From Myxococcota bacterium (lineage in GTDB: Bacteria; Myxococcota_A; UBA9160; PR03): a stretch of DNA of 44,086 nt. The stretch lies in the NCBI GenBank assembly GCA_041577015.1, contig JBFGJV010000001.1, positions 1 through 44,086 of the forward strand, read 5' to 3'. A program made the translations under genes and the position numbers. Positions 22,370-24,186 of the stretch are shown in pieces (the first letter of the stretch is position 1; each line of letters opens with the position of its first letter). The notes beneath the pieces were generated by a model, which was not told where the DNA came from, did not search any database, and saw nothing but the letters and a program-made list of their open reading frames with translations.

Positions 22370-22396
22370 GTGAACCTCGCCACCCTCTCGCGCGTA
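22370..22396 (+). promoter_or_regulatory. Candidate ECF-type promoter upstream of the PspC/sigma cassette
   Basis: GTGAAC (22370-22375), a 17-nt spacer, then CGTA (22393-22396). This resembles the GAAC-N16/17-CGT consensus of many ECF sigma promoters. It lies ~55 nt upstream of ATG 22450. A motif match only. Confidence 0.3.
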
Positions 22397-22449
22397 CCAT
22401 GAACGAGGCGTCGCGCGCGCCCCCGGCGCCGAGACCAAGGGAGGATCCG

Positions 22450-22887
22450 ATGGCCGAGAAGACCTGTCCCTGGTGTGCCGAGAGCATCCGCGCCGAGGCG
22501 GTGAAGTGCCGCCACTGCGGGAGCCTCGTGGCGGGCGGACTGCGCGATCCGCGCGAGTGGCACCGGGGCTACCCGGAGCGGCGTCTGGCCGGGGTGTGCG
22601 CCTCGGTGGCCCACAACCTGGGCGTGTCCGTGAGCGTGGTGCGCGTCCTCTTCCTGCTGTTCACCCTCTTCCACGGGCTCGGGCTTGTGCTCTACGCGCT
22701 GCTGTGGTTCCTGCTTCCGGAGGCACCGGGCGGACGCTCCGCCGCCGACCGCGCGGGCGAGGCCCTGCGCACGCTGCTCGGGCGGGACGAGGGGGACGGA
22801 CCCCCGTCCGCACGGCCGCCGTCGCGGGGGAGCGAGACGTCCCAGGGAGACGAGACCTCCGACGGATGGAGTCCGACGAGGAGCTGA
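22450..22887 (+). CDS. Zinc-ribbon + PspC-domain membrane protein, paralogue 1
   Basis: From ATG 22450 with GGGAGGA upstream. CPWCAESIRAEAVKCRHCGS is a CxxC-x10-CxxC ribbon. The PspC domain follows: RRLAGVCASVAHNLGVSVSVVRVLFLLFTLFHGLGLVLYALLWFLLPE. The C-terminal tail is disordered. Confidence 0.75.
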   Translation: MAEKTCPWCAESIRAEAVKCRHCGSLVAGGLRDPREWHRGYPERRLAGVCASVAHNLGVSVSVVRVLFLLFTLFHGLGLVLYALLWFLLPEAPGGRSAADRAGEALRTLLGRDEGDGPPSARPPSRGSETSQGDETSDGWSPTRS

Positions 22888-23384
22888 TGACGGCCGTCGC
22901 GGCCCGGGCGGACGAGCGCGCGCTCGCGACCCTGGTGGATCGTCACGGGGAACGGCTGTACGCGTTCCTGGCCCGCACCACGGGCGATCCCGTGGAGGCC
23001 GAGGACCTGGTGCAGGAGACCTGGATCCGCATCGCGCGCGCGGCGCCGCGCTTCGATCCCCGGCGACGCTTCCGACCCTGGGCGTACGGGATTGCGGCGA
23101 ACCTGGCGCGCGACCTGCATCGTCGCCGGCGCGTGCGTCGGGAACGGACCCCGGAGCCGGCGACGGCTCCGGCCCCGACGACGCCCGGCCCCGTGGAGCG
23201 CTTGGATCTCCGCGAGCGGCTGGCCCGGCTTCCTGGCCGGCTGCACGAGGTGATCGTGCTGCGCTACGTGGAGGGATTCGACGAGGCGGAGACAGCCGCA
23301 GCGCTCGGCATCCCGCGCGGCACGGTGAAGAGCCGCCTGCATGCGGCGTTGCGGGCCTTGCGCGCCGAGGAGAGCACGACGTGA
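22866..23384 (+). CDS. ECF-type RNA polymerase sigma-70 factor
   Basis: From ATG 22866. Region 2 is DLVQETWIRIARAAPRFDPRRRFRPWAYGIAANLARD. Region 4 is VIVLRYVEGFDEAETAAALGIPRGTVKSRLHAALRALR. It overlaps the preceding gene by 22 nt. Confidence 0.85.
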   Translation: MESDEELMTAVAARADERALATLVDRHGERLYAFLARTTGDPVEAEDLVQETWIRIARAAPRFDPRRRFRPWAYGIAANLARDLHRRRRVRRERTPEPATAPAPTTPGPVERLDLRERLARLPGRLHEVIVLRYVEGFDEAETAAALGIPRGTVKSRLHAALRALRAEESTT

Positions 23385-23863
23385 GCTGTGAAGCGGTGCA
23401 GCGACGCCTGGAGGAGGCGCTGGCGGCCCGTCGCGAGCCGGCGGCCGGGGACCACGCGCACGCGGAGGGCTGCTCCGCCTGCGCCGCGCATCGCCGCTTC
23501 CTGGTGGAGCTCACCGCGGAGCTGGATGCGCTTGTCGTGCCCCCGCTCGCGCCCGCCGTGCTGGCGGCGACGCGCGAGCGCGCGGCGGAGGCGCTGCGGG
23601 AGCGGGCCGCCTGGCGGGGCTTCGGACGCGAGCTCGCGGCGGCCGTGGCGCTGGCGCTGGTGGCGCTTCCGGTCGCCGTCGCCCACGGGCTGCTCGTGGC
23701 GCGCGGCGCCTCGGCGCTGCTCGGCGCCTGGGTCCCGGCTCCGGTGCTGAGCTGGCTCGGCCTGGTCTACTTCGGCTCCGTGGCCCTGGCTTTCGGGGTC
23801 CTCTACGGATCGCTCCCGCTGGCGGTCGCCTTCTCGCGCCGCATGCGGGAGGAGGCGGCATGA
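23381..23863 (+). CDS. Membrane anti-sigma factor with a ZAS (HxxxCxxC) motif
   Basis: GTG 23381 overlaps the sigma stop (GTGA). N-terminus SCEAVQRRLEE...HAEGCSACAAH, followed by two or three hydrophobic helices. Confidence 0.7.
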   Translation: MSCEAVQRRLEEALAARREPAAGDHAHAEGCSACAAHRRFLVELTAELDALVVPPLAPAVLAATRERAAEALRERAAWRGFGRELAAAVALALVALPVAVAHGLLVARGASALLGAWVPAPVLSWLGLVYFGSVALAFGVLYGSLPLAVAFSRRMREEAA

Positions 23864-24186
23864 CCCAGACCAAGCGTTGTCCCTGGTGCGCCGAGGAGAT
23901 TCGCGCCGAGGCGGTCAAGTGCCGCTACTGCGGCAGCTTCGTGGAGCCGCGCGCCCTGCAGAGCCTCGCCGCGCCCTGGGCGCGGCCGCAGCAGGGGCGC
24001 ATGCTGGCGGGCGTGTGCGCGGGCCTCGCCGAGCAGTTCGCCATCTCGGTGACCGTGCTGCGCATCGCCTTCGTGCTGGGTTTCTTCTTCTCCGCCGGCG
24101 TCGTGCTGCTGCTCTACATCGCGCTCTGGGTCGCGATGCCGTCCGGCGAGAGCCCGTCGGACCTGGATCCCTCCCCACGGGGATGA
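23860..24186 (+). CDS. Zinc-ribbon + PspC-domain membrane protein, paralogue 2
   Basis: ATG 23860 overlaps the anti-sigma stop (ATGA). CPWCAEEIRAEAVKCRYCGS, then the PspC domain GRMLAGVCAGLAEQFAISVTVLRIAFVLGFFFSAGVVLLLYIALWVAMP. Confidence 0.8.
   Translation: MTQTKRCPWCAEEIRAEAVKCRYCGSFVEPRALQSLAAPWARPQQGRMLAGVCAGLAEQFAISVTVLRIAFVLGFFFSAGVVLLLYIALWVAMPSGESPSDLDPSPRG

What the first reader, a model, noticed from the sequence alone, without database searches (positions are those of the whole stretch)
22370..24186. ECF sigma / ZAS anti-sigma pair sandwiched between two paralogous zinc-ribbon-PspC proteins
Four genes are translationally interlocked:
- PspC-1 (22450-22887) overlaps the sigma gene by 22 nt.
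- The sigma stop and anti-sigma start share GTGA (23381-23384).
- The anti-sigma stop and PspC-2 start share ATGA (23860-23863).

Both PspC proteins begin with nearly identical CxxC-x10-CxxC ribbons, CPWCAESIRAEAVKCRHCGSLV versus CPWCAEEIRAEAVKCRYCGSFV. Similarity is visible even at DNA level (about 22465-22530 versus 23878-23943). Each ribbon is followed by a PspC membrane domain. A GAAC-N17-CGTA ECF-like promoter precedes the cassette, and a type IV pilin gene follows it.

PspC domains are known from phage-shock and LiaF-type envelope-stress circuits. I do not know of a described module in which duplicated zinc-ribbon-PspC proteins flank an ECF/anti-sigma pair. The tight coupling suggests a stoichiometric membrane complex, in which the PspC proteins may act as co-sensors or co-anti-sigma factors. 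That role is inference.
Basis: partly seen in the sequence, partly recalled or inferred. Interest (0 to 1): 0.7.

Follow-up and report, generated by a model that had tools for sequence, protein, structure and literature searches.

The report
ECF sigma switch with PspC sensors
This is a real four-gene operon, conserved across several bacterial phyla, in which a stress sigma factor and its membrane anti-sigma are encoded with PspC-type membrane proteins; in some relatives PspC is fused to the anti-sigma, so PspC is probably part of the switch.

Summary
PspC-1 (22450-22887), an ECF sigma (22866-23384), a zinc-motif anti-sigma (23381-23863) and PspC-2 (23860-24186) overlap one another. They lie behind a GAACC-N16-CGTA promoter (22372-22396).

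The arrangement is not chance:
- 31 of 35 assessable genome loci holding a close ZnR-PspC relative have sigma and anti-sigma directly upstream. 23 have all four genes; 8 lack PspC-1.
- All 10 closest sigma relatives in metagenomes carry the same anti-sigma.
- The promoter motif lies upstream of the first gene in 37 of 40 loci, against about 0.0016 expected per 260 nt.
- The 4-nt overlaps are conserved.

New here: in a sister lineage (Thermoanaerobaculia, at least 160 proteins) the anti-sigma and a PspC domain are one polypeptide directly after the sigma gene. That fusion argues that PspC is a working part of the anti-sigma.

Best model: a self-inducing membrane-stress switch whose sensor is PspC.

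The pilin gene is not part of the module (2 of 33 loci). Operons combining a sigma, a ZAS anti-sigma and Toastrack or LiaF-type proteins are already published, and ZnR+PspC is a catalogued architecture. I therefore class this as a new variant of a known kind. Interest is moderate.

The parts
22372..22396 (+). ECF-type promoter, tGAACC-N16-gCGTA, 54 nt upstream of the PspC-1 start; presumably read by the cassette's own sigma (autoregulation inferred)
   Evidence: It is the only match in the 44-kb window, against 0.03 expected, and the top PWM hit at 24.7 bits. The motif occurs upstream of the first cassette gene in 37 of 40 loci, against 4 sites in 663 kb elsewhere. The logo was built from 39 non-redundant sites; 35 of 39 have 17 nt between GAAC and CGTA.
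22450..22887 (+). PspC-1 (145 aa): a basic N-terminal CxxC-x10-CxxC zinc ribbon, then a PspC domain (amphipathic helix plus one TM), then an acidic, low-complexity tail of about 57 aa. Optional member of the module.
   Evidence: Pfam PspC at 59.9 bits. It belongs to a positional ortholog subfamily distinct from PspC-2. It is absent from 8 three-gene loci. A GGGAGGA Shine-Dalgarno sequence precedes the ATG.
22866..23384 (+). ECF (group 4) sigma factor, 172 aa; alternative start at ATG 22887 (165 aa)
   Evidence: Sigma70_r2 at 71.9 bits, r4_2 at 57.1 bits and TIGR02937 at 98.1 bits. The nearest solved relatives are SigE, SigL, CnrH and SigW. The N-terminal peptide MxSDEELM is conserved across clades.
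23381..23863 (+). Membrane anti-sigma factor, 160 aa: a cytoplasmic four-helix ZAS-type anti-sigma domain (C3, H27, C31, C34), then a two-helix TM hairpin with a loop of about 11-15 residues and no periplasmic domain
   Evidence: The motif is nearly invariant in 31 orthologs. The AF2 model has pLDDT 84.6, with helices 3-15, 22-30, 32-50 and 58-78 followed by 81-114 and 120-159. The family profile hits ChrR, RsiW, RslA and DdvA. zf-HC2 gives weak hits in 7 of 31 orthologs. P97, P119 and P146 in the TM hairpin are conserved. The GTGA overlap with sigma is conserved in 21 of 26 four-gene loci.
23860..24186 (+). PspC-2 (108 aa): zinc ribbon plus PspC domain with a short acidic tail. It is the invariant partner encoded directly after the anti-sigma.
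   Evidence: Pfam PspC at 73.6 bits. It overlaps the anti-sigma stop by 4 or 8 nt in 22 of 26 four-gene loci and in most three-gene loci. Its PspC domain is homologous to the C-terminal half of the fused anti-sigma-PspC proteins (hhalign probability 99.1%, E = 2e-18).

Best explanation
The locus is a self-inducing ECF sigma/anti-sigma switch for membrane (envelope) stress. PspC-domain proteins are working parts of the membrane anti-sigma complex, not bystanders.

Proposed mechanism:
1. In the resting state, the cytoplasmic zinc-motif anti-sigma domain holds the sigma factor at the membrane.
2. The anti-sigma has only a TM hairpin and no periplasmic sensor domain. The signal must therefore be read in or at the membrane.
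3. PspC-2 is made in fixed proportion through overlapping start and stop codons, and PspC-1 likewise where present. These proteins associate with that hairpin and supply the sensor, as the PspC domain is thought to do in Psp and Lia-type systems.
4. Membrane perturbation changes the PspC/anti-sigma assembly, and sigma is released.
5. Released sigma transcribes its own operon from the GAACC-N16-CGTA promoter.

Shown:
- the domain identities;
- the conserved gene order, overlaps and promoter;
- the existence of a covalently fused anti-sigma-PspC ortholog.

Inferred:
- physical contact between PspC and the anti-sigma;
- the nature of the signal;
- whether PspC stabilises or antagonises sigma binding;
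- whether release is allosteric or proteolytic;
- the role of the zinc ribbon. It may dock the separate PspC protein onto the cytoplasmic part of the complex, replacing the covalent link of the fused form.
For: 1. Mutual and near-obligate association. 31 of 35 assessable genome loci anchored on ZnR-PspC have sigma and anti-sigma immediately upstream. All 10 metagenome sigmas scoring at least 199 bits against the cassette sigma model have the anti-sigma, and have PspC wherever the contig allows. Sigmas scoring 173 bits or less have no such neighbours.
2. The flanking genes differ between loci, so the cassette itself is the conserved unit.
3. The 4- and 8-nt overlaps are conserved.
4. The ECF-type promoter is conserved in 37 of 40 loci, against a background of 0.0016 per 260 nt.
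5. Rosetta-stone fusion:
 - In L104, L107, L169 and L170 the gene that overlaps the sigma stop by 4 nt encodes, in one protein, a ZAS domain with C3/H27/C31/C34 at identical positions, then TM helices, then a PspC domain.
 - This family has at least 160 members.
 - Its two halves are homologous to the cassette's anti-sigma (probability 98.0%, E = 2.5e-13) and to ZnR-PspC (probability 99.1%, E = 2e-18).
6. In a neighbour-joining tree the fusion-type sigmas nest within the cassette sigma clade.
7. The split point is topologically consistent. The anti-sigma C-terminus and the basic ZnR N-terminus of PspC are both predicted to be cytoplasmic.
8. The anti-sigma TM hairpin carries conserved prolines, which is unusual for a mere membrane anchor.
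9. Precedents:
 - B. subtilis SigM is held by a two-protein membrane anti-sigma complex, YhdL-YhdK, which is controlled allosterically by a membrane lipid (PMC11081497).
 - PspC is proposed to be a membrane-proximal sensor domain, and sigma/ZAS/Toastrack operons are proposed to be Lia-like (PMC11237479).
Against: - No interaction was measured or predicted. It does not establish packing of the PspC helix against the hairpin.
- The fusion lacks the zinc ribbon, so it says nothing about the ribbon's role.
- The topology of the PspC domain is uncertain. The fused family has a basic tail after the PspC hydrophobic segment, which by simple helix counting would lie outside the cell.
- The only promoter copy found lies in front of the operon itself, so no regulon is known. 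The PspC proteins could therefore equally be the main output.
- The MAG taxonomy labels are uneven.
- The neighbour-joining tree has no support values.
Confidence: 0.6

Rival explanations
1. The PspC proteins are outputs rather than sensors. The sigma/anti-sigma pair senses stress on its own, and the operon's main job is to raise the level of two membrane-protecting PspC proteins. This resembles B. subtilis SigW inducing pspA and the yvl operon that holds a PspC homolog (own knowledge).
For: - The only conserved target promoter found lies in front of the operon itself.
- PspC-1 is optional.
- No other regulon gene is visible in the window or the flanks.
Against: - An effector is not expected to be fused covalently to the anti-sigma in a whole sister family.
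- The 4-nt overlap of PspC-2 with the anti-sigma stop is as conserved as the sigma/anti-sigma overlap.
- The anti-sigma has no sensor domain of its own beyond a TM hairpin.
Confidence: 0.2
2. The primary input is redox or thiol stress, read by the cysteines of the ZAS motif and perhaps of the zinc ribbons, as in RsrA-type anti-sigmas. The membrane location and the PspC proteins would be secondary.
For: - The C-x23-H-x3-C-x2-C motif is nearly invariant.
- Each PspC adds a four-cysteine ribbon.
- The family profile matches ChrR and RslA, which respond to oxidative signals (their biology is from my own knowledge).
Against: - The ZAS motif is also present in anti-sigmas that do not sense redox, such as RsiW, which is among the hits (own knowledge).
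- More distant variants have a two-TM protein without the zinc motif after the sigma, yet keep ZnR-PspC genes nearby (L045, and similarly L042).
- Redox-sensing ZAS proteins such as RsrA are soluble, whereas this one is membrane-embedded with conserved TM residues.
Confidence: 0.12
3. The adjacency has no functional meaning: an ordinary ECF pair lies next to two unrelated small membrane-protein genes.
For: None beyond the lack of experiments.
Against: The gene order, overlaps and promoter are conserved across dozens of species-level genomes from several phyla with different flanks, and a fused form exists.
Confidence: 0.02

Closest known systems
Sigma factor / ZAS anti-sigma / Toastrack or LiaI-LiaF-TM membrane-protein operons (Ravi et al. 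2024, mSystems, PMC11237479, Text S2.4 and Table S4; examples from Emticicia and Granulicella)
   Same: An ECF-type sigma is followed by a zinc-finger anti-sigma and then by one or two membrane proteins carrying a Psp-partner domain. The authors propose a Lia-like relay from a membrane signal to a sigma factor. They note that some variants add a PspC protein.
   Different: - No Toastrack, LiaI-LiaF-TM, HEAT or DUF2089 component is present here.
- The partner is a zinc-ribbon-PspC protein, usually duplicated and flanking the pair.
- The anti-sigma has only a TM hairpin.
- The fused anti-sigma-PspC form is not mentioned in that paper. It lists ZnR+PspC (Adeh_3661) only as a stand-alone gene.
B. 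subtilis sigM-yhdL-yhdK
   Same: The operon order is sigma, anti-sigma, small membrane protein. The two membrane proteins together hold the sigma at the membrane. Control is thought to be allosteric rather than proteolytic, and the signal is read within the membrane (UndP level) (PMC11081497 and PMC6827917).
   Different: To my knowledge YhdK is not a PspC-domain protein and has no zinc ribbon. There is no upstream paralog. The taxa are unrelated. The resemblance is one of mechanism only, and homology of the accessory protein was not tested.
Classical Psp system (PspF-PspA-PspB-PspC) and Lia/PspC-histidine-kinase systems
   Same: A PspC domain serves as the membrane-proximal sensing element that controls a transcription regulator (PMC11237479).
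   Different: - The output here is an ECF sigma, not PspF/sigma-54 or a response regulator.
- No PspA, PspB or PspF gene is among the immediate neighbours.
- Both proteins fall far below the PspC equivalog cut-off, at 40 and 50 bits against 104.
ZAS class I anti-sigma factors (ChrR, RsiW, RslA, RsrA)
   Same: The H-x3-C-x2-C motif with an upstream Cys/His ligand, a four-helix N-terminal domain, and a gene directly after (and overlapping) its ECF sigma.
   Different: - There is no cupin or other extracytoplasmic domain.
- The membrane part is a conserved two-helix hairpin.
- The window protein itself does not reach any Pfam model.

Membership tests
ECF (group 4) sigma-70 factors | [quoted passage not shown] | tested here: met
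   Sigma70_r2 at 71.9 bits, Sigma70_r4_2 at 57.1 bits, and TIGR02937 at 98.1 bits against a cut-off of 42.9.
ECF (group 4) sigma-70 factors | Assignment to a named ECF group or NCBIfam equivalog | tested here: not met
   The best subfamily models (PRK09645 at 114 bits against 202; SigE-fam_strep at 107.5 against 141.55) fall below their cut-offs. The ECF Hub group models were not available.
Class I / ZAS anti-sigma factors | H-x3-C-x2-C motif with an upstream Cys/His ligand | tested here: met
   C3, H27, C31 and C34 are invariant or nearly so in 13 and in 31 orthologs, and lie at identical positions in the fused family.
Class I / ZAS anti-sigma factors | Sequence or profile similarity to known members | tested here: met
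   The profile of 31 orthologs against PDB sequences gives ChrR at 2.6e-4, RsiW at 2.2e-3, RslA at 0.053 and DdvA at 0.19, aligned on the motif. The window protein alone has no Pfam hit, and zf-HC2 is weak in 7 of 31 orthologs, so the match is at profile level only.
Class I / ZAS anti-sigma factors | Four-helix anti-sigma domain fold | tested here: inconclusive
   AF2 predicts four N-terminal helices with pLDDT 86-97. Foldseek with the full-length model found no significant PDB match.
Class I / ZAS anti-sigma factors | Binds zinc and binds its cognate sigma | not testable with these tools
   This needs biochemistry or multimer modelling.
PspC domain family (PF04024) | Score above the Pfam gathering threshold | tested here: met
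   59.9 bits for PspC-1 and 73.6 bits for PspC-2, against a cut-off of 25.
Canonical PspC of the Psp operon (TIGR02978 / PRK10697 equivalogs) | Score above the equivalog cut-off, and a pspA/pspB/pspF neighbourhood | tested here: not met
   40.1 and 50.5 bits against a cut-off of 104. The immediate neighbours are a SpoU methylase, PNP oxidase, pilin, glyoxalase and an SDR. The rest of the window was not scanned for PspA.
ZnR+PspC architecture (Ravi et al. 2024) | An N-terminal four-cysteine zinc ribbon fused to a PspC domain | tested here: met
   CxxC-x10-CxxC is invariant in 21 aligned homologs. Pfam Zn_ribbon_3 scores 22.3-22.5 bits, below its cut-off of 27, but PF13248 is on record for many homologs. 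The architecture is listed in PMC11237479.
Sigma / ZAS / Toastrack (Lia-like) operons | A Toastrack or LiaI-LiaF-TM protein in the operon | tested here: not met
   Pfam finds no such domain in any cassette protein. The resemblance is in layout only.

The most novel reading that the evidence does not exclude
The PspC domain is a genuine sensory module of a class of ECF anti-sigma factors. It comes in two interchangeable forms: a single ASD-TM-PspC polypeptide (Thermoanaerobaculia), and a split form in which a zinc ribbon docks separate PspC subunits onto a minimal hairpin anti-sigma (Myxococcota, Binatia and others). That would make it a direct hybrid of the Psp-type membrane sensor and the ECF output, controlling sigma release without any periplasmic domain and possibly without proteolysis.
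Probability: 0.45. Interest if true: 0.65.

Novelty: new variant of a known kind. Interest (0 to 1): 0.55.

Why it matters
Most membrane anti-sigma factors whose signal is understood have a periplasmic domain or are cut by proteases. How hairpin-only anti-sigmas sense anything is poorly known. This family offers a tractable case: a minimal anti-sigma, a defined promoter for a reporter, and partner proteins carrying a domain (PspC) already implicated in membrane-stress sensing. It also exists in both split and fused natural forms, which can be compared directly. The fused proteins are currently labelled only "PspC domain-containing protein", and the split anti-sigmas "hypothetical protein". Hundreds of anti-sigma factors are therefore missed by annotation. 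The finding also links two envelope-stress systems, Psp-type and ECF-type, that are usually treated separately.

Tried and rejected
- Foldseek search of the full-length anti-sigma model against the PDB gave no significant hit. The TM hairpin dominates the model, so I used a sequence profile instead.
- phmmer of the single anti-sigma against PDB sequences gave only noise.
I anchored on the sigma instead.
- AF2 of the natural fusion, meant to show whether the PspC helix packs on the hairpin, gave pLDDT 71 and pTM 0.39, with no coordinates to inspect. It is inconclusive.
- Regulon search:
  - The PWM scan of the window found only the operon's own promoter.
  - The next site (43610, 18.4 bits, GAGCC with an 18-nt spacer) lies inside an ORF (43215-43862) and was rejected.
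  - Extra exact motif matches downstream of the cassette in L017, L027 and L021 do not precede credible genes.
- The pilin as part of the module was rejected, since it is present in only 2 of 33 loci.
- The conserved C-terminal "W-x-P-T-R-S" of PspC-1 was considered as a functional motif. I rejected it as most likely a by-product of the overlapping sigma reading frame, which encodes the conserved SDEELM.
- Gene conversion was considered as the cause of the 87% DNA identity of the ribbon segments. It is not needed, because the peptide is nearly invariant across the whole family and the genome is 72.5% G+C.
- Literature:
  - No paper in the library combines PspC, zinc ribbon and ECF.
  - The five papers that mention PspC, ECF and anti-sigma together look irrelevant from their titles and abstracts; I did not open them.
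  - The main texts of the ECF reclassification paper and the ASDI paper do not mention PspC.
  - No supplementary files are held for the reclassification paper, and I did not check the ASDI paper's supplement. A group description mentioning PspC therefore cannot be excluded.
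Full report
**1. What is in the sequence**

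The window is a complete 44,086-bp contig of a high-G+C (72.5%) assembly.
- PspC-1 (22450-22887, 145 aa)
- an ECF sigma factor (22866-23384, 172 aa)
- a 160-aa membrane protein (23381-23863)
- PspC-2 (23860-24186, 108 aa)

Pfam finds a PspC domain in both outer proteins, at 59.9 and 73.6 bits against a cut-off of 25. It finds sigma-70 regions 2 and 4 in the second protein, which also passes the NCBIfam ECF superfamily model.

The two PspC proteins are paralogs: 47% identical, E = 7e-27. Each begins with an almost identical CxxC-x10-CxxC ribbon. The coding DNA of the two ribbons is 87% identical over 67 nt. The ribbon reaches only about 22 bits on the Pfam ribbon models (cut-off 27), but its four cysteines are invariant in homologs.

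The GTGA and ATGA overlaps are as stated. The 22-nt PspC-1/sigma overlap depends on the start chosen. ATG 22887 (a TGATG overlap) is used by gene callers in some close relatives. However, the peptide M-x-S/T-D-E-E-L-M encoded from ATG 22866 is also conserved in clades where there is no overlap, which favours 22866. One consequence is that the conserved "W-x-P-T-R-S" end of PspC-1 is probably only the shadow of that overlapping sigma frame.

**2. The third gene is an anti-sigma factor**

The third protein has no Pfam or NCBIfam hit, and its public homologs are named "hypothetical protein".
- **Motif.** C3...H27-x3-C31-x2-C34 is invariant or nearly so in 13 database homologs and in 31 orthologs from related loci.
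- **Predicted structure.** An AlphaFold2 model (pLDDT 84.6) shows four N-terminal helices with the ligands placed as in ZAS domains. Two long helices follow and form a membrane hairpin.
- **Profile similarity.** A profile of the 31 orthologs finds solved ZAS anti-sigmas as its best PDB matches, aligned on the motif: ChrR (2.6e-4), RsiW (2.2e-3), RslA (0.053) and DdvA (0.19).
- **Pfam zf-HC2.** Seven of the 31 orthologs give weak hits.

Foldseek with the full-length model found nothing, so the fold test is inconclusive.

Hydropathy and charge place the anti-sigma domain and the short basic C-terminus in the cytoplasm. Only about 11-15 residues lie outside the cell, so there is no periplasmic sensor domain. 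The hairpin carries conserved prolines (P97, P119, P146), which suggests it is more than an anchor.

**3. The arrangement is conserved**

*PspC-anchored survey.* ZnR-PspC proteins of this type are numerous: 853 hits. Three homologs on long contigs all lie in the same four-gene order with unrelated flanks.

I then scanned one genome per species. Of the 80 loci kept, 38 held a full-length ZnR-PspC relative. I annotated these with HMMs built from the cassette's own proteins:

| Arrangement | Loci |
|---|---|
| PspC - sigma - anti-sigma - PspC | 23 |
| sigma - anti-sigma - PspC only | 8 |
| Cut by a contig end | 3 |
| Different arrangement | 4 |

In the three-gene loci the promoter lies directly upstream of sigma, and there is no hidden PspC-1. 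The invariant core is therefore sigma, anti-sigma and PspC-2. PspC-1 is an ancient addition: in the alignment, the upstream and downstream PspC proteins group by position rather than by genome.

The taxon labels include Myxococcota and "Deltaproteobacteria", Binatia, Thermodesulfobacteriota and Aminicenantes. These are MAG labels and should be read with care.

*Sigma-anchored survey.* In a metagenome scan anchored on the sigma, all ten sigmas scoring at least 199 bits on the cassette model are followed by the anti-sigma. Eight of the ten show PspC-2; in the other two the contig ends first. Sigmas scoring 173 bits or less have no PspC neighbour.

*Junctions and family size.* The sigma/anti-sigma overlap is 4 nt in 21 of 26 four-gene loci. 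The anti-sigma/PspC-2 overlap is 4 or 8 nt in 22 of 26. My start-codon choice favours the start nearest the upstream stop, so these counts are slightly generous. The anti-sigma profile finds 693 clusters at 50% identity in 1.84 billion representative proteins, of which 102 score E <= 1e-10.

**4. The promoter**

- GAACC-N14-16-CGTA lies on the coding strand within 260 nt upstream of the first cassette gene in 37 of 40 loci. Only 4 matches occur in the other 663 kb of those loci, which is 0.0016 per 260 nt.
- The consensus from 39 non-redundant sites is tGAACC, then a spacer, then gCGTA(c/t)(t/a)A. In 35 of 39 sites, 17 nt separate GAAC from CGTA.
- In the window it is the only exact match, against 0.03 expected, and the top PWM hit.

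This -35 AAC / -10 CGT pattern is typical of ECF promoters (established knowledge). Its position implies that the sigma drives its own operon; that step is inference. No sigma-70-like promoter or intrinsic terminator was detected in 22250-24900.

No second credible site was found in the window or the flanks, so no wider regulon is known. The pilin gene follows the cassette only here and in the closest relative (2 of 33 loci), and it is not part of the module.

**5. A natural fusion**

Two metagenome loci whose sigmas score just below the cassette clade (L104, L107) have, overlapping the sigma stop, a single gene encoding three elements in order:
- a ZAS domain with C3, H27, C31 and C34 at the same positions as in the window protein;
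- TM helices;
- a C-terminal PspC domain (Pfam 3e-13 and 2.5e-9).

This fused protein has at least 160 homologs, nearly all 215-231 aa long and mostly from Thermoanaerobaculia. They are annotated only as PspC-domain proteins. In two further contigs from different samples the fused gene again overlaps an ECF sigma gene by 4 nt.

Profile-profile comparison shows that both halves are homologous to the cassette's separate proteins:
- N-terminal half to the cassette anti-sigma: probability 98.0%, E = 2.5e-13
- C-terminal half to the ZnR-PspC proteins: probability 99.1%, E = 2e-18

In a neighbour-joining tree (no support values), the fusion-type sigmas sit inside the clade of cassette sigmas and the PspC-less sigmas sit outside.

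The break point between the split proteins makes topological sense. The anti-sigma ends in the cytoplasm, and the basic zinc ribbon that starts PspC is also predicted to be cytoplasmic. The fused form has no ribbon. A reasonable guess is that the ribbon replaces the covalent link by docking; this is untested. An AF2 model of the fusion was only moderate (pLDDT 71, pTM 0.39) and does not settle how the helices pack.

**6. Mechanism and rivals**

*Best model (confidence about 0.6).* This is a self-inducing ECF switch in which the PspC proteins are part of the membrane anti-sigma complex and supply the sensor for a membrane-level signal.

*Output-only rival (about 0.2).* The PspC proteins are merely the induced output. 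This fits the lack of any other target promoter. It is hard to reconcile with the fusion, or with an anti-sigma/PspC-2 overlap as conserved as the sigma/anti-sigma overlap.

*Redox rival (about 0.12).* Redox sensing by the cysteines is the primary input. This fits the invariant motif, but three points weigh against it:
- The motif also occurs in non-redox anti-sigmas such as RsiW.
- The protein is membrane-embedded.
- More distant variants keep ZnR-PspC genes but have a two-TM protein without the zinc motif after the sigma (L045, L042).

*Chance adjacency* is excluded by the conservation data.

**7. Comparison with what is known**

- ZnR+PspC is a catalogued architecture (Adeh_3661). It is listed as a stand-alone gene (PMC11237479).
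- The supplement of the same paper describes operons of a sigma factor, a zf-HC2 anti-sigma and one or two Toastrack or LiaI-LiaF-TM membrane proteins. It notes variants with an added PspC protein and proposes a Lia-like relay to the sigma. That is the closest published layout.
- This cassette differs from it in four ways: it lacks Toastrack, LiaF, HEAT and DUF2089 parts; it uses ZnR-PspC as the only partner; it has a hairpin-only anti-sigma; and it has a fused counterpart.
- B. subtilis SigM with the YhdL-YhdK membrane complex, controlled allosterically by a membrane lipid, is the best mechanistic precedent.
- The main texts of the ECF reclassification paper and the class I anti-sigma paper do not mention PspC. 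The reclassification paper's supplement, which holds the group descriptions, is not held in the library. I did not check the class I paper's supplement.
- No solved structure matches the ZnR-PspC proteins by sequence.

**8. Verdict**

I rate it a new variant of a known kind and of moderate interest (0.55). Its main value is as a tractable model for how hairpin-only anti-sigmas sense the membrane, and as a correction to the annotation of several hundred unrecognised anti-sigma factors.

Noticed in passing
L104:3004-3684, L107:1586-2458, L169:3001-3678, L170:3001-3675: A family of about 226-aa proteins, mostly from Thermoanaerobaculia, fuses a ZAS anti-sigma domain, two TM helices and a PspC domain, and ends in a conserved basic tail (MPVHPDDRQYLLRFRxRRW). 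Public annotation calls them only 'PspC domain-containing protein'. The tail's function, and on which side of the membrane it lies, are unexplained.
   Followed up: partly
L094, L098, L099, L108-L110, L127, L130, L135, L144, L146, L147, L149, L160, L168 (upstream of the sigma gene): A sister group of ECF sigmas (about 35-40% identical to the window's sigma, and without anti-sigma or PspC neighbours of this type) often has the same GAACC-N-CGTA motif upstream of its own gene. Promoter specificity may therefore be shared between the two groups, with possible cross-talk where both occur in one genome.
   Followed up: no
L045:1275-2901 and L042:1204-1578: Latescibacterota and Glassbacteria variants: the sigma is followed by a two-TM protein of about 125 aa that lacks the HxxxCxxC motif and has no Pfam hit. 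In L045 two consecutive ZnR-PspC genes then follow, the first with extra C-terminal TM helices. This appears to be a third arrangement of the same parts.
   Followed up: partly
L033:4004-4345 and L046:3998-4331: PspC-2 is split into two HMM pieces in different frames in these two MAG loci. This points to a frameshift, either a sequencing or assembly error or a pseudogene.
   Followed up: no
window 22866-22887: In the 22-nt overlap both reading frames look conserved: sigma MESDEELM and PspC-1 GWSPTRS. The sigma peptide is also conserved where there is no overlap, so the PspC-1 C-terminal 'motif' is probably not selected for itself.
   Followed up: yes
window 43610-43641 (+): The second-best promoter PWM hit (18.4 bits; GAGCC instead of GAACC, with an 18-nt spacer) lies inside ORF 43215-43862, near the contig end. 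It is probably not a promoter.
   Followed up: partly
window 18864-21026 (+): A 720-aa ORF fuses anthranilate synthase component I (Anth_synt_I_N and Chorismate_bind) to a class-I glutamine amidotransferase, i.e. a TrpE-TrpG fusion.
   Followed up: partly
window 24267-27241 and L001:4610-8213: The genes downstream of the cassette (prepilin, glyoxalase, short-chain dehydrogenase, and a 341-aa protein with a weak 2OG-Fe(II) oxygenase hit) are syntenic only with the closest relative (GCA_041611735.1). L001 has an extra MAPEG gene in this stretch.
   Followed up: partly
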